NCBI GenBank assembly: GCA_029961075.1
Contig: JASBVL010000060.1
Span: forward strand, 1 to 56,253
Source of the DNA: Sphaerobacter sp.
GTDB lineage: Bacteria; Chloroflexota; Chloroflexia; Thermomicrobiales; Thermomicrobiaceae
DNA length: 56,253 bases
Direction of reading: 5' to 3'
The translations under genes and the position numbers were made by a program. How positions within the stretch are numbered: the stretch's first letter is position 1; every line of letters begins with the position of its first letter. This document shows positions 1-55,020 of the stretch, in pieces. A model generated the notes under the pieces. The model searched no databases and was not told the DNA's origin. It worked only from the letters and a program-made list of their open reading frames with translations.

Positions 1-55
1 GCTCCACGAGGTCGGCCACGCCGTGGCCGTGCGTGCCTTCGGCGGCGAGATCACG
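1..55 (+). repeat. Left copy of a long direct repeat flanking the R-M cassette. Its right copy is 3025..3079 and probably extends 5' beyond the window.
   Basis: Direct sequence comparison: 55/55 nt identical. Confidence 0.85.
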
Positions 56-88
56 CCTATGCACTGGTCACGAGCCTAGAGTGCATGT
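1..88 (+). pseudogene. Truncated 5' copy of the membrane HExxH metalloprotease gene. Bases 1-55 are identical to 3025-3079. The reading frame gives ...LHEVGHAVAVRAFGGEIT, then diverges and stops at 86-88. The 5' end lies outside the window.
   Basis: Exact 55-nt identity to the interior of the CDS at 2807..3841. Identity is lost at position 56. Confidence 0.7.
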
Positions 89-181
89 TAGTACCCCTGG
101 AATACTCGAACGAGTGTGCTATACTTGGTGAATGTACACTCCCAGTCGAGGTGCCGCCCTGAGCCCCACGGAGGTCCGGAA

Positions 182-1900
182 ATGGTCGACGGGATCGTGC
201 GAACGGCTCCTGCCCTCCAGCTCGCGCTTGGACTTATCCCGAAGGAGCCAAGGCGGTCGCCTGAAGAGAAGCGTGGTGTCGTATATACGAAACCCTGGGT
301 AGTTGACCTAATTTTGGACCTGGCGGGGTATATACCGGATCGCGATCTCGCAGGCACCTTCGCGGTGGAACCAGCCGCGGGGGACGGTGCGTTTCTCGTT
401 GCCATGGCACGGCGACTGGTCACCTCCTGCCACCGGTGGCAGCGTCCGCTCAGCGCCATCACCAACTCGCTGCTCGCGTACGAGCTAGACGAGGAGAGCG
501 CGGAACGCGCTCGTATCGCCGTCGCGAGTGCCCTCCGTAGCTTGGGTGTTCCGTCTTCTGCGGCGGAAAGTCTGGCGTCTGGCTGGGTATGTACTGGTGA
601 CTACTTGATGGCCTCGCCATGCCTGCCGGCGGCCGATTTCGTGATCGGCAATCCACCCTATATACGCCTGGAAAATATGGATGCGTTCCAAGCCGCATCC
701 TACCGCAAGGTCTACCAGACAATGCGCGGCCGCGCCGATATCTACATCGCCTTCTATGAGGCAGCACTTCGCCAGCTGAAGCCGAACGGGGTTTGCGCTT
801 TCATTTGCGCGGATCGGTGGATGTTCAATCAATATGGGGCGGAGCTGCGCCGTCTGGTAACTGAGGGGTACGCCGTCGATTCCGTCATCGAGATGCACCG
901 CACCGATGCCTTCGCCGACGATGTCAGCGCATACCCAGCGATCACGGTCATCCGAAACGGCCAGCAGGGCCCAGTCATGGTTGCCCGCTTGTCTCAACAA
1001 GCTGCGCTCGCAGGGGAGCACATCACCACGGATGTGTTCCAACGGCTTCAGGATGATGGAAAGACCGCCCCTGCCGACGTGGGGATACAGGCAACCTGGG
1101 TCAAGCATTGGTTCACCGGCCCCGATCCGTGGCCGCTCGTCGAACCCGCCCGGTTGGCGCTCCTCAAGGAGTTGGAGGAGCGCTTCGATCCCCTGGAGTC
1201 CCCGCAGACCGGGACCAAAGTCGGGATTGGCGTCGCGACGGGAGCTGATGACATCTTCATCACAACGGACCCTGCCCTTGTCGAGCCGTCCCGGCTCTTG
1301 CCATTGGCGATGGCAGCGGATACCACCTCAGGGCGCTTGCTCTGGTCAAAACACTATCTCGTGAATCCTTGGTCGCCGTCCGGGCTGGTAGATCTGGATC
1401 AGTACCCTCAGCTCGCGGCTTATCTGGGACGACACCGAGAGCGGCTGCTCCAGCGACACGTGGGTCGGAAGAACCCACATGCTTGGTATCGCACTATCGA
1501 CCGAGTAAACTACAGCCTCCTGCATCGGCCGAAGCTGTACATTCCTGACATAAAGGATCAACTCAACCCTGCGCTTGACACGGGAGAGACGTACCCACAT
1601 CATAATCTGTACTACATACATTCTGATGCATGGGATCTTGAGGTCTTGGGGGGCCTCTTAATGTCGGCTATCGGCCAGTTCTTCGTCGAGTGCTATGGAG
1701 TTCGGATGCGCGGGGGTTATCTTCGTTTTCAGGCCCAGTATCTTCGTCGGATCCGCGTGCCTCGTCCTCAAGACATCTCTCCTGCCCAACGCGCTGCTCT
1801 CATCCACGCGTTTCGGCAGCGCGACCGAGAGCTCGCTACCCAGGTAGCCCTCGAGGTGTACCGGATTCCGCGCGGTTCCACGGAGCTTGTGGTGAGATGA
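182..1900 (+). CDS. Type II restriction-modification N6-adenine DNA methyltransferase, gamma-class, TaqI/PaeR7I-like.
   Basis: Motif I-like AVEPAAGDGAF and motif IV GNPPY occur in gamma-class order. Colinear resemblance to M.TaqI: VYTKPWVVDL, LKPNGV, and C-terminal RFQAQYLRRIRVP versus the LRMLERLPV region. ATG at 182 is preceded by GGAGGT. The track ORF starts at 116. The gene lies in a low-GC block. Confidence 0.8.
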   Translation: MVDGIVRTAPALQLALGLIPKEPRRSPEEKRGVVYTKPWVVDLILDLAGYIPDRDLAGTFAVEPAAGDGAFLVAMARRLVTSCHRWQRPLSAITNSLLAYELDEESAERARIAVASALRSLGVPSSAAESLASGWVCTGDYLMASPCLPAADFVIGNPPYIRLENMDAFQAASYRKVYQTMRGRADIYIAFYEAALRQLKPNGVCAFICADRWMFNQYGAELRRLVTEGYAVDSVIEMHRTDAFADDVSAYPAITVIRNGQQGPVMVARLSQQAALAGEHITTDVFQRLQDDGKTAPADVGIQATWVKHWFTGPDPWPLVEPARLALLKELEERFDPLESPQTGTKVGIGVATGADDIFITTDPALVEPSRLLPLAMAADTTSGRLLWSKHYLVNPWSPSGLVDLDQYPQLAAYLGRHRERLLQRHVGRKNPHAWYRTIDRVNYSLLHRPKLYIPDIKDQLNPALDTGETYPHHNLYYIHSDAWDLEVLGGLLMSAIGQFFVECYGVRMRGGYLRFQAQYLRRIRVPRPQDISPAQRAALIHAFRQRDRELATQVALEVYRIPRGSTELVVR

Positions 1901-2628
1901 GGCAAGAGGCTCTAGAGGAACGACTGCGAGAGGCCATTCACCAATATTGGCAGACTCGGCAGACGCAGCAAGACCGCCAAGTCGCAAGCGGAAAGGCAGA
2001 TGCCGGTTCCCGGGGGGCCGTCACCGGCGGAGCGCAGATGCTGGCCTTCGAGCAGTTGTTGGTGAACCTATCAGTTGAATCTGGAGTACCTAGTGAGGAT
2101 ATCCATCGGCGCGCCGCGATCAACCTACCCGGCTACTACCGGCCAGAGAAGGAGTGGGATCTTCTTGTAGTCTCCCGTGGACAGCTTGTGGCCGCAATAG
2201 AGCTCAAGTCTCAGGCTGGCCCCTCCTTCGGAAACAACTTCAATAACCGCGTTGAGGAGGCGGTAGGCAACGCGACCGATTTCTGGACAGCCTACCGTGA
2301 AGGTCGGTTCGGGGCTGGGCCACGTCCCTTTCTCGGCTACTTCTTCTTGCTTGAGGATTGCGACAAGGTGCGCCGTCCGGTACGAAACGAGGAACCACAT
2401 TTCCCCGTGGATCCAGTATTTGCGAACGCCTCCTACAGCCAGCGGTACGAGATCTTCTGTCATCGCCTGGTCTACGAACGGTTGTACGACAGCGTCTGTC
2501 TCACGCTGGCGACGAAACCAACGATGTACTCCGCAACTCGCATCTCCCACCCGGCGGGCGACCTCACGTTCTACCGCTTTGTAGCAACACTGCAGGGACA
2601 CATCACCACATGGCTGCGGAGCCAGTGA
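1897..2628 (+). CDS. Putative Type II restriction endonuclease, companion of the methyltransferase. About 243 aa, a size consistent with PaeR7I/XhoI-class enzymes.
   Basis: ATGA start/stop overlap with the MTase gene at 1897-1900. Same low-GC block. M-first operon layout as in PaeR7I. No catalytic motif could be verified by eye. Confidence 0.45.
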   Translation: MRQEALEERLREAIHQYWQTRQTQQDRQVASGKADAGSRGAVTGGAQMLAFEQLLVNLSVESGVPSEDIHRRAAINLPGYYRPEKEWDLLVVSRGQLVAAIELKSQAGPSFGNNFNNRVEEAVGNATDFWTAYREGRFGAGPRPFLGYFFLLEDCDKVRRPVRNEEPHFPVDPVFANASYSQRYEIFCHRLVYERLYDSVCLTLATKPTMYSATRISHPAGDLTFYRFVATLQGHITTWLRSQ

Positions 2629-2806
2629 GGATGGTAGAGCCGTCTACCGGTCTTGGACAGCCAGCGTTCAAACCTGCTTCGCTCAGTCCATGGTCCGAAC
2701 GGACCCGTCCGACAGTTCTTCCCCCAAATCCCTCGGCACAGATCCGGTCGCCAGCAGAGTGAAACGACCACGTGGTTAGGGGAGTGCTCTGGCTTCCGAC
2801 TCCGCG

Positions 2807-3841
2807 ATGCTACAATTGCCGGGACGGAAAGGCCAGGGAGTCCACCCGGTGCCCACGCTCGACCTCGTCGCCATCCTCAGCCTGCTCATGGTGCTGGTGT
2901 CGATCCGCACGCTGGTCACGACGGTGCGCCAGCGCGCCACCCTCTTCGACGCCGCCTTCACCCGCGCCGACCGCCAGCAACTCGCCGAAGTCGCCGTCTT
3001 CCTCCTGCTGCCCATCAGCGTGCTGCTCCACGAGGTCGGCCACGCCGTGGCCGTGCGTGCCTTCGGCGGCGAGATCACGGGGTTCGGCTACTACTTCTTC
3101 TTCGGGTACGTCGCGCATCGCGGCTTCTACACCGCGGCGGACCTGTTCTGGATCGCGCTCGCCGGCAACCTAGTCAGCGTGGTGCTGGGGCTCGCCGCCA
3201 TCGCGCTGGTGGTGCTGCGCCCGCTGCGCCCGCCGGTGAACTACCTGCTGCTCATGTTCGGCGCGATCGACCTGGCCAACTCGCTCGTCTTCTATCCCCT
3301 GCTCGACTTCGCCGGCAACCTGGTCGGCGACTGGTCGCAGATCTACACGCGAGACACGCCGGTCCTCAGCGGGGTCACCGGGGTGATCCACGCCGGGCTG
3401 CTGCTGGCGGCCGTCGTCGCCTGGCGGAGCGACCGCGTGCGCCGGCTCTACGCCGCGCGCACCGGGATCAGCCCGCAGGCGGTGCGGCGGGTGACGCGCC
3501 GCCAGGTGGCGAACGAACTGCTGGCGGCCGGCGAGCAGCTCGCCGGGGCGTGGCGGCATCCGCTGCGGGTGGTGGCGGACGCGCAGGGCGAGGCGGTCGG
3601 CGTCCGCCTCCAGTGGATCAGCGGGGGCTACGGCCGCGTGGTCGCCGCCTACGCGCTGGTCGACGACTGGCGGCGGCTGGAACTGTACGGCGGCCTGCAC
3701 GCGCTCGACGGCGGCACGCCGCACCAGCAGCCGCTCGGGGTGATCGAGGGGATCCCCGAGCCGCCGGAGCTCACGCGGGTGCTGGCTCACGCGCTCGACG
3801 CGGTGGACGCGTGGGAGCGCCCACTCGCGCGCCTCGGCTAG
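2807..3841 (+). CDS. Polytopic membrane zinc metalloprotease, HExxH (LLHEVGHAV), M50/site-2-protease-like.
   Basis: Multiple hydrophobic helices. An HEVGH motif lies in a helix. A downstream NSLVFYPLLDFAG resembles the S2P NxxPxxxLDG motif. The start is uncertain; a later GTG or ATG is possible. Confidence 0.55.
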   Translation: MLQLPGRKGQGVHPVPTLDLVAILSLLMVLVSIRTLVTTVRQRATLFDAAFTRADRQQLAEVAVFLLLPISVLLHEVGHAVAVRAFGGEITGFGYYFFFGYVAHRGFYTAADLFWIALAGNLVSVVLGLAAIALVVLRPLRPPVNYLLLMFGAIDLANSLVFYPLLDFAGNLVGDWSQIYTRDTPVLSGVTGVIHAGLLLAAVVAWRSDRVRRLYAARTGISPQAVRRVTRRQVANELLAAGEQLAGAWRHPLRVVADAQGEAVGVRLQWISGGYGRVVAAYALVDDWRRLELYGGLHALDGGTPHQQPLGVIEGIPEPPELTRVLAHALDAVDAWERPLARLG

Positions 3842-3897
3842 CGCCGGGCGCCGCGAGGTCCGCATCCTGCGACCCATCCGAATGGAGGGCCGATGCC

Positions 3898-4755
3898 ATG
3901 CCCTGGTGGAGACGGGTCCGACACACACCGCCGCCACACGGCGCCGAGCCAGCCGCACCGGCCGGGACGCCGGGCGACGACGCCGGCCAGCCGTACATCC
4001 GCGACGCCGAGCGGCGGAGCCTGCGCCGCCTGCTGCAGCGCCGGAGCAACCTGGCGTACGACCTGGCGCAGGCCGAGCTGGCCCTGCAGCCCGAGAACCC
4101 CTGGACCGAGCGGATCGCCCAGCTCGACGCTGCGATCGCCCAGGCGGAGGCGGACCTGGCGGCGCTGCGGCCGGCGCCCGCGACCGTGCCGCGGGTCCAG
4201 CTCCCGGCCACGCCGATCGCCGTGGAGGACGTGCGCCCGGCGGAGCCGGCGGCGGTGACGCTGCGGGCCGGGGAGGTGACCCTCCGCTACCAGGAGGAGA
4301 TCGACTGGGCCGAGCGCGGCCATCAGGTGGCGCTGCCGCAGCTCGCGCGCGTAGCCGGGGACGTCGCCCCGTTGGTGCCGGCCGACCTGGAGGCGTCGAC
4401 GCGGGCCGCGCTGGCCGACCACCTGCGCCAGGGCTTCTCGATCGTGGCCGAGGAGGCGCTGGAGCGCGCCGCGGCGGGCGAGCCGCCGCCGGCCTACACC
4501 CTGGCCGACCTCACCCGCCCCTGCCCCACCTGCGGCGGCTGGCAGGACCCCAAGGGGCGCTGCGCGGCCTGCGCCGAGCTGGAGCGCCAGCGGCAGCGCA
4601 TCCGGGCCGGGCTGGAGCGGCTGCGCGCCGAGCGGGACGAGCAGCGGCAGGAGATGGAGCGCTACCGGGAGCGCCTGCCGGTCATCCGCCGGCAACTGGC
4701 CGAGACCGAGGCCGACATCGCGAAGCTGCGGGCCAAGGGGGTCGAGCCGGCGTAG
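3898..4755 (+). CDS. Hypothetical protein with a CPTCGG...CAAC zinc-ribbon motif followed by an Arg/Glu-rich coiled coil.
   Basis: This is the C-terminal portion of the 2653..4755 ORF. ATG at 3898. The composition is protein-like. No family recognised. Confidence 0.45.
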   Translation: MPWWRRVRHTPPPHGAEPAAPAGTPGDDAGQPYIRDAERRSLRRLLQRRSNLAYDLAQAELALQPENPWTERIAQLDAAIAQAEADLAALRPAPATVPRVQLPATPIAVEDVRPAEPAAVTLRAGEVTLRYQEEIDWAERGHQVALPQLARVAGDVAPLVPADLEASTRAALADHLRQGFSIVAEEALERAAAGEPPPAYTLADLTRPCPTCGGWQDPKGRCAACAELERQRQRIRAGLERLRAERDEQRQEMERYRERLPVIRRQLAETEADIAKLRAKGVEPA

Positions 4756-4860
4756 CGCGGGGGGCGCGTTCGGTATTGCGTGTTGCGTACTGCGTCGTGC
4801 GTGGTGCGGAGTGCGTGTGGAGGTATTCCCCTCACTCCTCACCCCTCTCCCAACATGGAC
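4756..4860. repeat. Repeat family A copy A1, a half element. It has tandem heptamers (GTATTGC GTGTTGC GTACTGC GTCGTGC...) followed by the core in reverse orientation (CCTCACCCCTCTCCCAAC).
   Basis: Seen in sequence. Shares the heptamer arm and core with the copies at 6305, 10598, 24150, 53090 and 54855. Confidence 0.7.
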
Positions 4861-5303
4861 GTTGGCGATTTCGTCCGGCGTACCCGGCGATCGTCTCCAG
4901 CCGGCTCATGGCGTCTGCTGAACGCGTCGGGAATCCGCGCCCGGCCAGGCGCGGATAGCCGACTATCTCGTCAGTCTCCGTCAACCCCGCCGGTTGGTCG
5001 TTCGTTACGCTGGCAGGGACGGGAACGGTCCTGGCAGAGGGGACACCCCGGGGGCCTTGGTGATCGGCGCCTGCTCCGCCAGCTTAGCGGCGATCCCGGC
5101 GGCAGGTGACGGCATGCCCGGGGCGGCGGGTCGTGAGGCGGCCCCGGCCCCGGAGCGGCCCGCGGCCGGCCCCGGGCAGTCGGCAGCCTGGGGCGTGCTA
5201 TGTGTCCCACTCTCTGTGATACAATCCGTGCGCCGGCGCCGTGGCCGCCTGACCGGGGTGCCGGCCCCGTGCGTTCACCACCAGCACCAACGGAGCGATA
5301 CCC

Positions 5304-6308
5304 TTGGCGAAGCAGCTCGGAATCGATCTGGGCACAGCCAACGTGCTCGTCTTCGTGCGTGGCCGCGGCATCGTGATCAACGAGCCATCCGTGGTCGCCA
5401 TCTCCACCAAGGACAACAAGGTCAAGGCGGTCGGGGTGGAAGCGCGCAACATGCTCGGCCGCGAGCCGCGGGAGACGATCGAAGTGGTCCGCCCGATGCG
5501 CGATGGCGTGATCGCCGACTACGTCGTCACCCAGGAGATGCTGCGCTACTTCATCAACAAGGCGGTCGGGCGCTTCTCGCTGGTGCGGCCGGAGGTGATG
5601 ATCTGCGTCCCCGCCGGGGTGACCGGGGTGGAGCGCCGCGCGGTGCGCGACGCCGCGCTGAACGCCGGCGCCCGGCGCGCCTACCTGATCAGTGAGCCGC
5701 TGGCGGCCGCCATCGGCGCCAAGGTGCCGGTGGCCGACCCGAGCGGGAACATGGTCATCGACATCGGCGGCGGCACGACCGAGGTCGCCGTCATCTCGCT
5801 CAACGGGATCGTCGTTGCCCGCTCGATCCGCGTCGGCGGGAACAAGTTCGACGACGCCATCGCCAACTACATCAAGCGCAAGTACAACCTGCGGATCGGC
5901 GAGCGCACCGCCGAGGAGGTCAAGATCGCCATCGGCTCGGCCATGCCGGTGGACTACGACCTCTCCATGGAGGTGCGCGGGCGCGACGAGGTCGCCGGGC
6001 TGCCGCGGACCATCCAGATCCACGCCAACGAGATCGTCGAGGCCATCACCGAGCCGCTGGAGGCGGTCATCGGGGCCGTGCGGGCCGTGCTGGAGGAGAC
6101 GCCGCCGGAGCTGTCGTCCGACATCATCGACAAGGGGATGATCCTGACCGGCGGCGGCGCGCTGCTGCGCCACCTGAGCGACCTGCTGACCGAGGTCACC
6201 GGCGTGCCGTGCTACGTGGCCGACGACCCGCTGAGCTGCGTGGCCATCGGCACCGGCCTGGCGCTGGAGTACTTCGACATCATCCGGGACAGCCTCGAAG
6301 AGCTGTGA
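5304..6308 (+). CDS. mreB: Rod-shape-determining actin homologue MreB.
   Basis: [29 protein letters not shown] and [14 protein letters not shown] are classic MreB motifs. TTG start as in the track. Confidence 0.93.
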
Positions 6309-6565
6309 GGCGCGGGGCGCAGGCCGTCTTGCGTAGTGCGTATTGCGTACTGCGTATTCCGTAGTCTGTGTTCCGTCTTCTCCCCTCTCTCAAAGTTGGG
6401 AGAGGGGCGGGGGGTGAGGGCTGCCCTACCACGCACCACGCAAGACGGAATGCCCAGCACCGAACACGCAACACACAATACGGAATACGCACTACGCGAT
6501 ACGCAATACGGAATACACACCACGCCTCACGCATCACGCCCCCAGGAAGCGCCGGCCCCTCCCCG
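6305..6565. repeat. Repeat family A copy A2, a complete element of about 260 bp. Layout: heptamer tandem arm, core CTCCCCTCTCTCAAAGTTGGGAGAGGGGCGGGGGGTGAGGG, then inverted heptamer arm.
   Basis: The left arm CGTATTGCGTACTGCGTATTCCGTAGTC... is mirrored by the right arm ...GAATACGCACTACGCGATACGCAATACGG. Confidence 0.75.
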
Positions 6566-10597: not shown

Positions 10598-10800
10598 GTC
10601 ATGCGTCAGGCGTCAGGCGTCATGCGTGTTCCGTATTGCGTATTGCGTATTGCGTGTCTTGCAGTGCGTGCGGTGTCAGGCGTCCTGCGTCCTCAGTGCT
10701 CCGCGGTCTCCCCGCTCTCCCGTGTGGGGAGCGGGGCCGGGGGTGAGGGGGACGGATGACGCATCACGGATGACGCATGACGTTCCCCCTCACCCCCGGC
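10598..10800. repeat. Repeat family A copy A3, a complete element. Layout: TCAGGCG/TATTGCG heptamers, core CTCCCCGCTCTCCCGTGTGGGGAGCGGGGCCGGGGGTGAGGGGG, then GATGACGCAT inverted arm.
   Basis: Seen in sequence. Confidence 0.75.
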
Positions 10801-17689: not shown

Positions 17690-17835
17690 CGTGCCCCAGA
17701 CAAAGCCCGGGAGGGCACGAGGCCCTCCCCTACCGCAGACGCGGGGCGCGAGCCACCGGTCGGCGCGGGGCGTGTCGAACGGAGCACCGCCCGGATTCCC
17801 ACGGGCGGGCACGAGGCCCTCCCCTACCGGGCATG
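17690..17835. repeat. Repeat family B cluster B1: GGGCACGAGGCCCTCCCCTACCG (x2) flanking GAGCCACCGGTCGGCGCGGGGCGTGTCGAACGGAGCACCGCCC.
   Basis: Seen in sequence. Units are shared with the clusters at 21345, 33600 and 40230. Confidence 0.7.
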
Positions 17836-21344: not shown

Positions 21345-21430
21345 CTGGTAGGGGCGGGGCTTGTCCCCGCCCGGTGGATTGCCGCACGCATGCGCGATCC
21401 GGGCGGGCACACGGCCCGCCCCTACCGGCC
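21345..21430. repeat. Repeat family B cluster B2: GGTAGGGGCGGGGCTTGTCCCCGCC ... GGGCACACGGCCCGCCCCTACCGG.
   Basis: Seen in sequence. Confidence 0.65.
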
Positions 21431-21681
21431 CCCTGCGGCCGTGGAGCGGCGCCCCTCCTCCGCGTGACGGTCGCGGACCTGCTCGACCAGTAACGCACCA
21501 CACGTGTGAGCCCCGGGCCCAGACCACCCCCCGCATGCCAATCGAGGACCGGCCCGCACCCGCCGCGCCCATCTGCGCCGCCGCAGCGGCGCGCGTATCC
21601 TGGGGAGACGATCCACCCCCGTGCAACCCGTAACACTCCGCCACCCCGCCCCGTTCACCAGGGCGAGAGGATCGTGCGCGA

Positions 21682-24149: not shown

Positions 24150-24250
24150 GTCTCGCCCCTCTCCCACGAGGGAAGCGGGGCCGGGGGTGAGGGGGACGAA
24201 CTACCGAGTACGCAATACAGAACACGCATTACGACGCATCACCCTCTCAC
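24150..24250. repeat. Repeat family A copy A4, a half element: core TCTCGCCCCTCTCCCACGAGGGAAGCGGGGCCGGGGGTGAGGGGG plus a right heptamer arm.
   Basis: Seen in sequence. Confidence 0.7.
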
Positions 24251-33599: not shown

Positions 33600-33840
33600 C
33601 GGGCGGCTCCGTCCGGCACGAGGCCCGCCCCTACCGGAGAACGGCGCGAGCCACCGGTAGGGGCGGGGCTTGTCGAACGGAGCACCGCCCGCGCCATCCT
33701 TCGGGACACGCGGGAGGGCACAAGGCCCTCCCCTACCACACCGAGGCCGCGCCGACGCTGGGGCCGGGGGCCGGCGCGACTCCGTGCGACGCCGGCGCTC
33801 CACGCGGCGGGAAGGCACACGGCCCGCCCCGACCGGTGGA
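33600..33840. repeat. Repeat family B cluster B3. Units: GGCACGAGGCCCGCCCCTACCGG, CCGGTAGGGGCGGGGCTTGTCGAACGGAGCACCGCCC, GGGCACAAGGCCCTCCCCTACC and GGCACACGGCCCGCCCCGACCGG.
   Basis: Seen in sequence. The first two units form an inverted pair capable of a stem-loop. Confidence 0.7.
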
Positions 33841-40229: not shown

Positions 40230-40615
40230 GGGCACGCACGGCGACGCCCCTACCGGGCACGCCAGTCGCCGACCACCGGTAGGGGAGGGCCTTGTGCCCT
40301 CCCACGTCCAACGCGGGCGACGCCGTCCGGGATACGCCCCGCCTCTCGTGGCTGGCGACGGGGGTCTATGGTAGGGGAGGGCCTGGTGCCGGACGGAGCC
40401 TCCCGCGTTTACATCGGGCGGTGCTCCGTTCGACAAGCCCCGCCCCGAGCGGAGAACGGCAGAACGGGCGCGGGGCTGGTCGGTAGGGGCGGGCCGGGCG
40501 CCGACCGGGGGCCGGTGAGGCTCCGTCCGACGCCGGCCCTCCCGGGTCGCCCCGAGCCGCCCGCGCGTGGACGTGGGCGGCTCCGTGCGGCACCCGGCCC
40601 GCCCCTACCGGAGCA
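40230..40615. repeat. Repeat family B cluster B4, the largest. It has five or more units in both orientations: CCGGTAGGGGAGGGCCTTGTGCCC, GGTAGGGGAGGGCCTGGTGCCGG, GGGCGGTGCTCCGTTCGACAAGCCCCGCCCC, GGTAGGGGCGGGCCGGGCGCC and GGCACCCGGCCCGCCCCTACCGG.
   Basis: Seen in sequence. Confidence 0.7.
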
Positions 40616-40665
40616 GGACGACGAGCACCCCGGATCGGGGCGATGGTGCCTGAAGCGGCCGCCAA

Positions 40666-53089: not shown

Positions 53090-53220
53090 GCGGTAGGTGG
53101 TGCGTACGCCGTAGTCCGTGTTCCGTCCTGCTCCCCTCTCCCAGCGTTGGGAGAGGGGCCGGGGGTGAGGGTGGCGTATGACGCACTACGCACTCCGCAC
53201 TACGGTCTACGCGACACGCC
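53090..53220. repeat. Repeat family A copy A5, a complete element that abuts the hemE stop codon. Core: CTCCCCTCTCCCAGCGTTGGGAGAGGGGCCGGGGGTGAGGG.
   Basis: Seen in sequence. Confidence 0.75.
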
Positions 53221-54854: not shown

Positions 54855-55020
54855 CGTCACCCGTCATGCGTCATACGTGATGGCGTATTGCGTATTCCGT
54901 GGTGCGTGGTGCGTGCCCCTCACCCCCGGCGCGTCTCCCAAGGCTTGGAGAGGGAAGAATACGGAATACGCAACACGCAGTACGCAATACTGCCCCGCCC
55001 CACGGATGACGGGTGACGCC
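54855..55020. repeat. Repeat family A copy A6, a complete element with clear terminal inverted repeats. GGCGTCACCCGTCAT on the left pairs with ATGACGGGTGACGCC on the right. The heptamer arms are GCGTATT GCGTATT CCGTGGT GCGTGGT, and the core lies in reversed orientation.
   Basis: Seen in sequence. Confidence 0.78.

What the first reader, a model, noticed from the sequence alone, without database searches (positions are those of the whole stretch)
1..3083. R-M cassette flanked by a long direct repeat of the host metalloprotease gene: insertion with long target duplication
Window bases 1-55 are a perfect copy of 3025-3079, which lies inside the intact HExxH protease gene at 2807..3841. Identity stops at base 56, where a low-GC block begins; this block is roughly 50-60% GC against about 72% in the flanks. 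The block carries a methyltransferase gene and a putative endonuclease gene and ends near 2760-2850. The left copy is therefore a truncated duplicate whose frame runs into a stop at 86-88. The duplicated segment must extend 5' beyond the window and is probably 270 bp or longer. This matches the architecture described for R-M units that move by insertion with long target duplication, rather than by a transposase or integrase; none is present.
Basis: partly seen in the sequence, partly recalled or inferred. Interest (0 to 1): 0.75.

Follow-up and report, generated by a model that had tools for sequence, protein, structure and literature searches.

The report
R-M cassette with head-to-tail junction
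A foreign XhoI/PaeR7I-type restriction-modification gene pair sits just upstream of a protease gene in a Sphaerobacter genome bin, and the 55-base "repeat" is the assembler's overlap at the contig end, marking a 3,024-base loop that is more likely a tandem or circular copy of the cassette than the footprint of its insertion.

Summary
Bases 1-55 equal 3025-3079 exactly, and a 59.6% GC block (56-2804) carries an m6A methyltransferase and an XhoI/PaeR7I-family endonuclease in a 72.7% GC genome. Sixteen related loci have an empty site.

The window is a whole 56,253-bp contig of an NCBI Sphaerobacter MAG, so base 1 is a contig end. Fifty-five is the usual final k of metaSPAdes, so the repeat length is only a lower bound. 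It signals a 3,024-bp cycle in the assembly graph.

[quoted passage not shown] It is flanked by 6-bp CCCGAT repeats and has no protease duplication.
- The window's left junction shares GATCACGCC with L018's native/cassette boundary. This implies a secondary recombination at a 7-bp microhomology.
- An independent k=31 assembly of the same strain runs unbranched from 1296 to 3079 and branches only after 3079. No native-upstream path enters at 2805.

Best reading: a simple intergenic R-M insertion, later duplicated head to tail as cassette plus 275 bp of protease locus. The 275-bp target-duplication model is not excluded (about 0.2). This is an ordinary kind of event, of modest interest.

The parts
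1..55 (+). Terminal copy of protease codons 59-77 (the HEVGH motif region), identical to 3025-3079. It forms the left side of junction J1 and is the contig-end overlap.
   Evidence: Searches show 55/55 identity. One search shows the window is the whole 56,253-bp contig. One search gives the translation LHEVGHAVAVRAFGGEIT, then PMHWSRA and a stop at 77-79.
49..57 (+). GATCACGCC, which spans junction J1. GATCACG is also present at 3073-3079. The same 9-mer sits at the native/cassette boundary of relative L018.
   Evidence: In L018 the 9-mer is at 302-310, where native CCCCGAT meets the cassette's CACGCC. In shuffles, any junction-spanning 9-mer appears anywhere in the 238-nt L018 left region with P=0.006.
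56..2804 (+). Foreign low-GC R-M cassette of 2,749 bp. Its ends are ambiguous by up to 4 bp (CACG on the left, CGAT on the right).
   Evidence: GC is 59.6% against 72.7%. The cassette is absent from L002-L017. It is 73.6% identical to the cassette of L018.
107..141 (+). Conserved promoter and operator-like palindrome upstream of the methyltransferase gene. It includes an extended -10, TGCTATACT, at 117-125.
   Evidence: One search finds 83% identity to two sites in L023. One search shows it is conserved in L018. The promoter role is inferred from sequence only.
182..1900 (+). Gamma-class N6-adenine DNA methyltransferase of 572 aa (NCBI MDI3340924.1).
   Evidence: One search gives PF07669 at 3.9e-21, plus PF02384 and PF12950. 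Searches give the annotation. One search finds NPPY at residue 157 and PAAGDGAF at residue 64.
1897..2628 (+). XhoI/PaeR7I-family Type IIP restriction endonuclease of 243 aa. Its start overlaps the methyltransferase stop in ATGA.
   Evidence: One search gives PF04555 at 3.6e-77. One search finds 46-52% amino-acid identity to plasmid genes annotated as PaeR7I family. One search shows the same length in L018 and L023.
2629..2804 (+). Spacer of 176 bp at the cassette's right end, of unknown function. L018 has only about 50 bp here. The last roughly 20 bp resemble L018's right end.
   Evidence: One search finds no similarity to any fetched locus except L001. One search finds no Rfam match. One search finds no terminator.
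2805..3079 (+). Segment A of 275 bp: the native protease extended -10 (TGCTACAAT, 2808-2816), the RBS, the GTG start at 2849 and codons 1-77. This is the part that would be the target duplication, or the chromosomal part of the 3,024-bp unit.
   Evidence: Homology to the empty-site loci starts at 2805. There is no step in similarity at 3079/3080.
2849..3841 (+). Intact HExxH membrane metalloprotease-like gene of 330 aa (NCBI MDI3340926.1, QJR03_10390).
   Evidence: Matches to M50 and M50B are weak and below the Pfam cut-offs.
2996..2996 (+). Polymorphic site: G in the MAG contig and T in Logan contig L001. T is the state in relatives.
   Evidence: One search finds this as the single difference in 1,784 bp. 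Searches give the state in relatives.

Best explanation
A two-gene Type IIP R-M module of the XhoI/PaeR7I family (presumed target CTCGAG) was acquired horizontally. The methyltransferase would protect host DNA by N6-adenine methylation, and the endonuclease would cut unmethylated DNA. The module inserted into the short intergenic region between a conserved N6_N4 orphan-type methyltransferase gene and the protease gene, immediately 5' of the protease's extended -10. Relative L018 has this arrangement, flanked by the 6-bp direct repeat CCCGAT.

Later, in this strain, illegitimate recombination joined two GATCACG sequences. One lay at the cassette's left boundary, and the other lies in protease codons 75-77 (3073-3079). 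This joined the end of a 3,024-bp unit (cassette plus 275 bp of protease promoter and 5' coding region) to its own start.

The most likely physical form is a chromosomal tandem duplication: U-[cassette-A]-[cassette-A]-rest of protease. That gives two R-M copies, one truncated protease ORF (77 aa plus PMHWSRA) and one intact protease gene. The de Bruijn assemblers collapsed the two copies into a cycle. The contig therefore begins with the 55-mer (k) that precedes the branch.

Shown: the cassette, its boundaries, the empty sites, the L018 arrangement, the branch after 3079, and the unbranched path 1296-3079.
Inferred: the ancestral left junction, the microhomology mechanism, and tandem rather than circular form.
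For: 1. The window is a whole contig, and the repeat sits exactly at its end with length 55.

2. In run SRR24392716 the same strain gives contig L001, equal to window 1296-3079, which ends exactly at 3079. It also gives L019, equal to window 3050-5800 at 100% identity. The two overlap by 30 bases, which is k-1, so this is a real branch.

3. Logan contigs come from graph simplification only, and each 31-mer occurs once per accession. L001 is unbranched across 2805. The sequence leading into the junction is therefore the methyltransferase 3' end, the endonuclease gene, the spacer and A. It is not native upstream DNA followed by A.

4. L018 has N6_N4 methyltransferase | homologous M+R (73.6% nt identity) | protease, with junctions GCGCCCCGAT|CACGCC and GCGACCCGAT|GCTACAAT and no protease duplication.

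5. The window's junction GAGAT|CACG|CCTATG shares the 9-mer GATCACGCC with L018's boundary (P about 0.006 anywhere in the region).

6. The MAG's own N6_N4 methyltransferase is complete and lies on a different, 29,857-bp contig.

7. The repeat is 55/55 identical, whereas relatives differ at about 12% in this stretch. The duplication is therefore recent.

8. The two assemblies chose different alleles at 2996. This fits two near-equal copies.
Against: - DNA left of base 1 was never seen. The MAG is not in the gene-position index or in the genome collection.
- It is not proven that SRR24392716 is the MAG's source.
- Tip clipping or a coverage drop could have removed a native-upstream branch at 2805 from the Logan graph.
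- L001 also breaks at 1296 for an unknown reason, so the entry point into the cycle could be there.
- The crossover falls right at the cassette boundary, which is a coincidence under a purely random microhomology event.
- A SPAdes contig that starts at the 55-mer is also what the 275-bp duplication model would give.
- Repeats that span a gene start, as segment A does, are typical of published long-target-duplication cases.
Confidence: 0.5

Rival explanations
1. The cassette is present once and is flanked by a 275-bp direct repeat (2805-3079) created by, or together with, its insertion: U-A-cassette-A-rest. The left copy is truncated and the right copy keeps the protease gene intact.
For: - The formal criteria of Furuta et al. 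2010 are met as far as they can be seen. R and M both lie in the insert, the insert is under 20 kb, the repeat exceeds 30 bp, both copies align to a single-copy target in empty-site genomes, and no mobility gene is present.
- The repeat would span the promoter and start codon, as in many published cases.
- A contig that starts at the last k-mer of the repeat is what a loop made of a 275-bp repeat plus the cassette would yield.
- The occupied lineages (window and L018) are not sisters, and cassette GC3 is unameliorated. Independent insertions are therefore plausible.
Against: - Logan contig L001 crosses 2805 without a break, although this model requires a second incoming path there at equal coverage.
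- L018 shows the same site occupied with only a 6-bp repeat.
- The shared GATCACGCC at the left junction would be a coincidence, or would need extra assumptions.
- A 275-bp repeat is normally resolved by paired-end data, yet the upstream contig was not joined.
Confidence: 0.2
2. The junction belongs to a 3,024-bp circular molecule (cassette plus A) excised from a single-copy chromosomal locus by recombination between the two GATCACG sites. This circle would be a possible transfer or re-integration intermediate. The chromosome itself would be U-cassette-A-rest.
For: The graph topology is the same as for a tandem duplication: a cycle of 3,024 bp with an exit after 3079. The microhomology sits at the cassette boundary. 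Furuta et al. propose a release step for R-M units, which has not been demonstrated.
Against: - No replication function lies in the 3 kb.
- A non-replicating circle should be too rare to survive k-mer filtering in two assemblers and to compete with the chromosomal branch.
- The reciprocal deletion would destroy the protease gene and remove the methyltransferase gene. Loss of the methyltransferase would expose the cell to the remaining endonuclease.
Confidence: 0.1
3. There is no duplication in the dominant genome. The junction comes from a minor variant, a second dispersed or partial copy that enters the cycle elsewhere (for example near 1296), or chimeric library molecules. The assembler simply attached that edge to the contig.
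For: - Logan contigs of this strain break every 2-3 kb, at 1296 and 5800, without any visible cause. This points to low coverage or strain mixture.
- A G/T polymorphism exists at 2996.
- The MAG is a population consensus.
Against: - The junction k-mers passed abundance filters in two different assemblers.
- The break is exactly at 3079 with a k-1 overlap to L019.
- Random chimeras are not recurrent.
- The microhomology at the cassette boundary argues for an event in living cells.
Confidence: 0.2

Closest known systems
Insertion of R-M units with long target duplication (Nobusato et al. 2000, Gene 259:99; Furuta et al. 2010, PMC2853133)
   Same: A Type II R+M pair without mobility genes has lower GC than the host. 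Empty sites exist in relatives. A direct repeat of host sequence longer than 30 bp touches both ends of the cassette. The repeat spans a gene start, so the gene stays intact.
   Different: Only 55 bp of the left copy are visible, and its left flank is unknown. Indirect evidence (L001 and L018) indicates that the repeated unit includes the cassette itself. The same site is occupied in a relative with only a 6-bp repeat.
Tandem amplification of an R-M gene complex (reference 84 of PMC2853133; from my own knowledge this is the BamHI system in Bacillus, Sadykov et al. 2003)
   Same: A unit containing R and M is repeated head to tail, which raises gene dosage. It can expand or contract by homologous recombination.
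   Different: In the experimental system the amplification used pre-existing long direct repeats. Here the first duplication seems to have arisen at a 7-bp microhomology. Copy number is unknown and nothing has been tested experimentally.
XhoI/PaeR7I family Type IIP R-M systems (CTCGAG). PaeR7I is the system used to show IS-linked R-M movement (PMC3031569).
   Same: The endonuclease matches PF04555 over the whole domain and is 46-52% identical to plasmid genes annotated as PaeR7I family. The partner is a gamma-class m6A methyltransferase. The M-then-R operon has overlapping genes.
   Different: The host is a Chloroflexota (Sphaerobacter) chromosome and no IS is nearby. The recognition sequence is untested. 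CTCGAG is not avoided in the contig (19 observed, 18.5 expected).
Contig-end k-mer overlap in de Bruijn graph assemblies (SPAdes and metaSPAdes default final k=55; Logan k=31)
   Same: The repeat lies exactly at the contig terminus and has length exactly 55. The Logan contigs of the same strain overlap by exactly 30 (k-1) at the same node.
   Different: It is not a pure artefact. The branch reflects a real second continuation after 3079 in the reads.

Membership tests
Type IIP R-M system, XhoI/PaeR7I family | Endonuclease with the XhoI/PaeR7I catalytic domain, full length | tested here: met
   PF04555 at E=3.6e-77, covering profile positions 2-182 of 191. It is 243 aa long, like its homologues in L018 and L023. 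Plasmid homologues are annotated as PaeR7I family.
Type IIP R-M system, XhoI/PaeR7I family | Adjacent cognate N6-adenine methyltransferase with an AdoMet-binding motif and the NPPY catalytic motif | tested here: met
   PF07669, PF02384 and PF12950 match. PAAGDGAF is at residue 64 and NPPY at residue 157. The M and R genes overlap in ATGA. The same M+R pairing occurs in L018 and L023.
Type IIP R-M system, XhoI/PaeR7I family | Recognition and cleavage of CTCGAG, with protection by methylation | not testable with these tools
   Only family membership is shown. CTCGAG frequency in the contig is as expected, 19 against 18.5.
Insertion with long target duplication (criteria of PMC2853133) | Both R and M lie inside the insert, the insert is under 20 kb, and no other mobile-element gene is present | tested here: met
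   The 2,749-bp insert holds only M and R. The right-hand neighbours are colinear with relatives.
Insertion with long target duplication (criteria of PMC2853133) | Direct repeat longer than 30 bp at both ends, with both copies aligning to one target in an empty-site genome | tested here: inconclusive
   A 55-bp exact repeat is seen, and both copies align to the protease gene of the empty-site loci. The left copy is cut by the contig end, so its real length and left boundary are unknown.
Insertion with long target duplication (criteria of PMC2853133) | The left repeat copy is preceded by native upstream DNA (arrangement U-A-insert-A) | tested here: not met
   This is an indirect test. The k=31 Logan contig L001 of the same strain runs from 1296 to 3079 with no incoming branch at 2805. 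Caveats are tip clipping and the unproven identity of the sample. The direct test, the upstream contig, was not obtainable.
Tandem duplication or amplification of an R-M unit | Head-to-tail junction joining the end of the unit to its start | tested here: met
   The junction 3079->56 is present in the MAG contig (bases 1-56). It is also implied by the branch after 3079 in Logan.
Tandem duplication or amplification of an R-M unit | Two or more complete copies of the unit in one molecule, with doubled read depth | not testable with these tools
   No reads, depths or long reads are available. The only support is the inference from the unbranched 1,784-bp path into the junction.

The most novel reading that the evidence does not exclude
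The XhoI-type cassette may be a site-specific mobile unit that carries no recombinase of its own. Two diverged versions (74% identity, unameliorated GC3) occupy exactly the same CCCGAT|GCTACAAT site in non-sister Sphaerobacter lineages, with the same end sequences (CACGCC... and ...CCGCGA). The window's 3,024-bp cycle would then be an aberrant excision or exchange product of that machinery, acting on the left end and on a pseudo-site (GATCACG) inside the protease gene. That would catch an R-M unit in the act of moving.
Probability: 0.1. Interest if true: 0.6.

Novelty: new member of a known kind. Interest (0 to 1): 0.3.

Why it matters
The main value is as a caution. An exact repeat of length k at the very end of a metagenome contig is a signature of the assembly graph. 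Its length says nothing about the biological repeat.

On the biology, the window adds a Chloroflexota example of a horizontally acquired XhoI/PaeR7I-type R-M module that shows presence/absence polymorphism at one intergenic site. It also hints that the module has recently been duplicated, or excised, together with a piece of the neighbouring gene. If read-level data confirmed a tandem array, it would be a natural case of R-M amplification, which so far is documented mainly in the laboratory. If they confirmed the 275-bp duplication, it would extend the long-target-duplication class to a new phylum. Neither outcome would change current concepts.

Tried and rejected
- **Fetching the DNA left of base 1.** Exact-protein look-ups of the MAG's protease, methyltransferase and N6_N4 methyltransferase found nothing. 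This MAG is not in the gene-position index.
- **Genome-collection scan.** The window's own contig is not in that collection.
- **JGI metagenome scan** for the cassette's left end gave no match.
- **P0055 as the MAG's upstream contig.** It proved to be a distant relative, L017.
- **Other members of the N6_N4 methyltransferase cluster** are all S. thermophilus-like and not this strain.
- **Terminal inverted repeats of the cassette.** None were found (and inspection).
- **Known RNA or terminator in the 176-bp spacer.** None were found.
- **Segment A imported together with the cassette.** There is no step in similarity at 3079/3080.
- **A shared 31-mer with an L018-like strain as the cause of the Logan break at 1296.** There is none.
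- **CTCGAG avoidance as a residence-time clue.** There is none.
- **Papers naming the run or the locus-tag prefix.** None are relevant.
- **Error on my side.** In one search I scanned the gene downstream of the protease in the wrong frame (3897 instead of 3898). Re-scanned correctly, it matches no NCBIfam family.


Full report
**1. What is in the sequence**

Bases 1-55 are identical to 3025-3079, with a spacing of 3,024. Identity ends at 56 (C) against 3080 (G). No other exact repeat of 28 nt or more occurs in the 56 kb.

Between the two copies lies a block of 59.6% GC in a 72.7% GC contig. GC3 is 66-67% in its two genes against 96% in the protease gene and mreB.

The block encodes two proteins.
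- A 572-aa gamma-class N6-adenine methyltransferase at 182-1900. It matches Pfam Eco57I, N6_Mtase and TaqI_C and has PAAGDGAF and NPPY motifs.
- A 243-aa endonuclease at 1897-2628. It matches PF04555 (XhoI) at E=3.6e-77, and its start overlaps the methyltransferase stop.

Plasmid homologues of the endonuclease (46-52% amino-acid identity) are annotated as PaeR7I family. This is therefore a CTCGAG-type Type IIP module by family, with specificity untested.

The truncated protease frame at the left end reads LHEVGHAVAVRAFGGEIT-PMHWSRA-stop, with the stop at 77-79 and not 86-88.

**2. Where the window comes from, and what the 55 means**

The protease protein is NCBI MDI3340926.1 (QJR03_10390) from a Sphaerobacter sp. 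MAG. Its only contig is 56,253 bp long, which is exactly the window. Base 1 is therefore an assembly end.

From my own knowledge, 55 is the default final k of SPAdes and metaSPAdes. Contigs of de Bruijn assemblers begin with the k-mer of the branching vertex they start from. I could not confirm which assembler was used for this MAG.

A repeat of exactly k at a contig terminus gives only a lower bound on the real repeat. It says that the graph contains a cycle: after 3079 the reads continue either into 3080 (the protease gene) or into 56 (the cassette's left end).

**3. Independent confirmation of the branch**

The exact endonuclease protein occurs on one other contig in the whole collection. 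This is Logan contig L001 from run SRR24392716, which equals window 1296-3079 with a single difference (2996 G>T) and ends exactly at 3079.

The exact downstream 285-aa protein is on L019 from the same run. L019 equals window 3050-5800 at 100% identity. L001 and L019 overlap by 30 bases, which is k-1 for Logan's k=31.

Logan drops k-mers seen only once, applies graph simplification only, and keeps every 31-mer once per accession. Both continuations after 3079 are therefore read-supported, so the junction is not a one-off chimera.

**4. Empty sites and the right boundary**

The following loci all have a conserved N6_N4 methyltransferase gene on the minus strand, then about 50-77 bp of intergenic DNA, then the protease gene, with no XhoI-type genes:
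- S. thermophilus-like contigs L002-L005
- a more distant group, L006-L015
- the GTDB representative MAG HOG56 (L016)
- L017

Homology to the window begins at 2805 (CGATGCTACAAT). TGCTACAAT at 2808-2816 is invariant across all six aligned loci (window, L002, L003, L006, HOG56, L017) and looks like an extended -10. A GGGAG RBS and GTG at 2849 give the 330-aa protein that NCBI annotates. The cassette is therefore 56-2804, and it sits immediately 5' of the protease's -10 element.

Similarity of the window to relatives shows no step at 3079/3080, so segment A (2805-3079) is native and was not imported.

**5. The key comparison: L018**

The closest methyltransferase homologue (74% amino-acid identity) lies on Logan contig L018. 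That contig reads N6_N4 methyltransferase (minus strand) | methyltransferase + XhoI-type endonuclease | protease. The cassette is 73.6% identical to the window's, and the protease 5' part is 87% identical.

A homologous cassette thus occupies the same intergenic site without any protease duplication. Its junctions are GCGCCCCGAT|CACGCCCTAG on the left and GCGACCCGAT|GCTACAAT on the right. The empty sites read CCCCGAT|GCTACAAT. The L018 cassette is therefore flanked by a 6-bp direct repeat, CCCGAT.

The window's right junction (CTCCGCGAT|GCTACAAT) is of the same type. Its left junction reads GCGAGAT CACG|CCTATG. The 9-mer GATCACGCC that spans it is the same 9-mer that spans L018's native/cassette boundary. 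In shuffles, a junction-spanning 9-mer appears anywhere in that 238-nt region with P about 0.006, and far less often at the boundary itself.

The simplest reading has three steps.
- The window's lineage once had U...CCCGAT|CACGCC...cassette, as L018 does.
- The protease gene of this lineage happens to contain GATCACG at 3073-3079. Relatives have GATCGTG, GATCCTG or GGTCGTC there.
- The present junction arose by recombination within that 7-bp microhomology.

**6. Which structure?**

Any molecule carrying the junction needs protease sequence to the left of the cassette. Three structures fit the cycle.
- (b) U-[cassette-A]-[cassette-A]-rest, a tandem duplication of the 3,024-bp unit.
- (c) A 3,024-bp circle alongside a single chromosomal copy.

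Model (a) requires a second path entering at 2805, from native upstream DNA, at the same coverage as the other junctions. L001 crosses 2805 unbroken. In that data set the only path into the junction runs through at least 1,784 bp comprising the methyltransferase 3' end, the endonuclease gene, the spacer and A. That is what (b) or (c) predict.

The 55/55 identity, against about 12% divergence from relatives in the same stretch, shows that the duplication is recent. If the cassette at this site is shared by descent with L018, the insertion is much older than the duplication and did not create it.

The two assemblies chose different alleles at 2996. This fits two near-equal copies.

Points in favour of (a):
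- A contig that starts at the k-mer is equally expected under it.
- Repeats spanning a gene start are typical of published cases.
- The occupied lineages are not sisters. Flank identities are L002-HOG56 95.7%, L018 to those two 92%, and the window 87-89%.
- The cassettes are not ameliorated.

The last two points make independent insertion possible.

Caveats on the Logan argument:
- Logan simplification could have clipped a short upstream stub.
- L001 also breaks at 1296 without a visible reason.
- I could not prove that SRR24392716 is the MAG's source.

My estimates are: tandem duplication 0.5, 275-bp target duplication 0.2, circle 0.1, and minor variant, partial copy or artefact 0.2.

**7. 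The upstream contig**

The MAG's own N6_N4 methyltransferase (MDI3342022.1, 321 aa, complete) is on a separate 29,857-bp contig and is absent from the window. The native upstream region therefore exists in this genome but was not joined by the assembler. Its end would settle the question. I could not retrieve it.

**8. How it works (inferred)**

The methyltransferase would methylate the adenine in the target site, and the endonuclease would cut unmodified DNA. Together they would give phage defence and post-segregational stabilisation, as is established for Type II systems.

The methyltransferase has its own extended -10 (TGCTATACT, 117-125) inside a palindrome. This element is conserved in L018 and in an unrelated host context, L023, which suggests a portable regulated promoter.

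The same M+R pair occurs in unrelated neighbourhoods. L023 has it next to an APH gene. L020 has the methyltransferase in a pPIWI/Mrr defence island, where no endonuclease gene is called but window similarity extends into the endonuclease region. This confirms that the module is horizontally mobile.

A tandem duplication would double R-M dosage and leave one truncated and one intact protease gene. It could expand, contract or loop out by homologous recombination.

**9. Comparison with what is known, and novelty**

Type II R-M cassettes with presence/absence polymorphism, long target duplications, and tandem amplification are all described (PMC2853133 and its references 37 and 84). This is a new member in a new host phylum, not a new kind of system.

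The most novel reading still open is a site-specific, recombinase-less cassette whose left end recombined with a pseudo-site. I put this at about 0.1.

**10. Verdict**

Interest is modest (0.3). The main lesson is that the 55 bp is a k-mer overlap at a contig end.

Noticed in passing
window 4768-4818, 6321-6537, 10621-10785, 24163-24232, 53128-53217, 54880-54990: Intergenic arrays of 7- and 14-nt periodic repeats of the type TACGCAA/TTGCGTA. They lie next to a hairpin-like module, CCCCTCTC...GAGAGGGG, followed by GGGGGTGAGGG. The arrays occur in both orientations at six or more places in the contig.
   Followed up: no
window 17708-17831, 21392-21437, 33601-33837, 40276-40620: A second family of short palindromic REP-like elements (GGCACGAGGCCCTCCCCTACC and relatives). 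They are clustered in small groups as both direct and inverted copies.
   Followed up: no
window 107-141; L018 about 440-475; L023 624-658 and 1915-1949: A conserved palindrome (GAGTGTGC...GTACACTC) overlaps the extended -10 of the XhoI-type methyltransferase gene. In L023 it occurs twice, 1.3 kb apart, bracketing an APH (phosphotransferase) gene. It may be an operator for R-M regulation or a recombination-prone repeat.
   Followed up: partly
window, whole contig: Among palindromic hexamers with four G/C, three are very rare: CAGCTG (1), CCTAGG (2) and GGTACC (3). CGATCG occurs 67 times. CTCGAG, the presumed target of the cassette, is at expectation, 19 against 18.5.
   Followed up: no
window 2996; L001 position 1701: This is the single difference between the MAG contig (G, Val) and the Logan contig of the same strain (T, Phe). 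T is the state in relatives. It could distinguish the two copies of the duplicated segment or two co-existing strains.
   Followed up: partly
window 4756-5303 versus L002 3644-4312: S. thermophilus-like contigs carry a Gly_transporter (PF03458) gene on the minus strand between the 283-aa gene and mreB. The window has only 548 bp of lower-GC, repeat-bearing DNA there, and the L006-type contigs also lack the gene.
   Followed up: no
L020 and L021 (GCA_040960995.1 contig; SRR25508684): A 65%-identical methyltransferase homologue lies in a defence island, next to a pPIWI_RE module and an Mrr_cat-nSTAND1 gene. In the NCBI contig no endonuclease gene is called after it, although window similarity continues into the endonuclease region. 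This may be a decayed R gene.
   Followed up: no
L001 start (window 1296) and L019 end (window 5800): The Logan contigs of this strain break at these two positions, and no repeat or feature is visible there in the MAG contig. The cause is unknown and could be a coverage gap, a strain variant or a structural entry point.
   Followed up: partly
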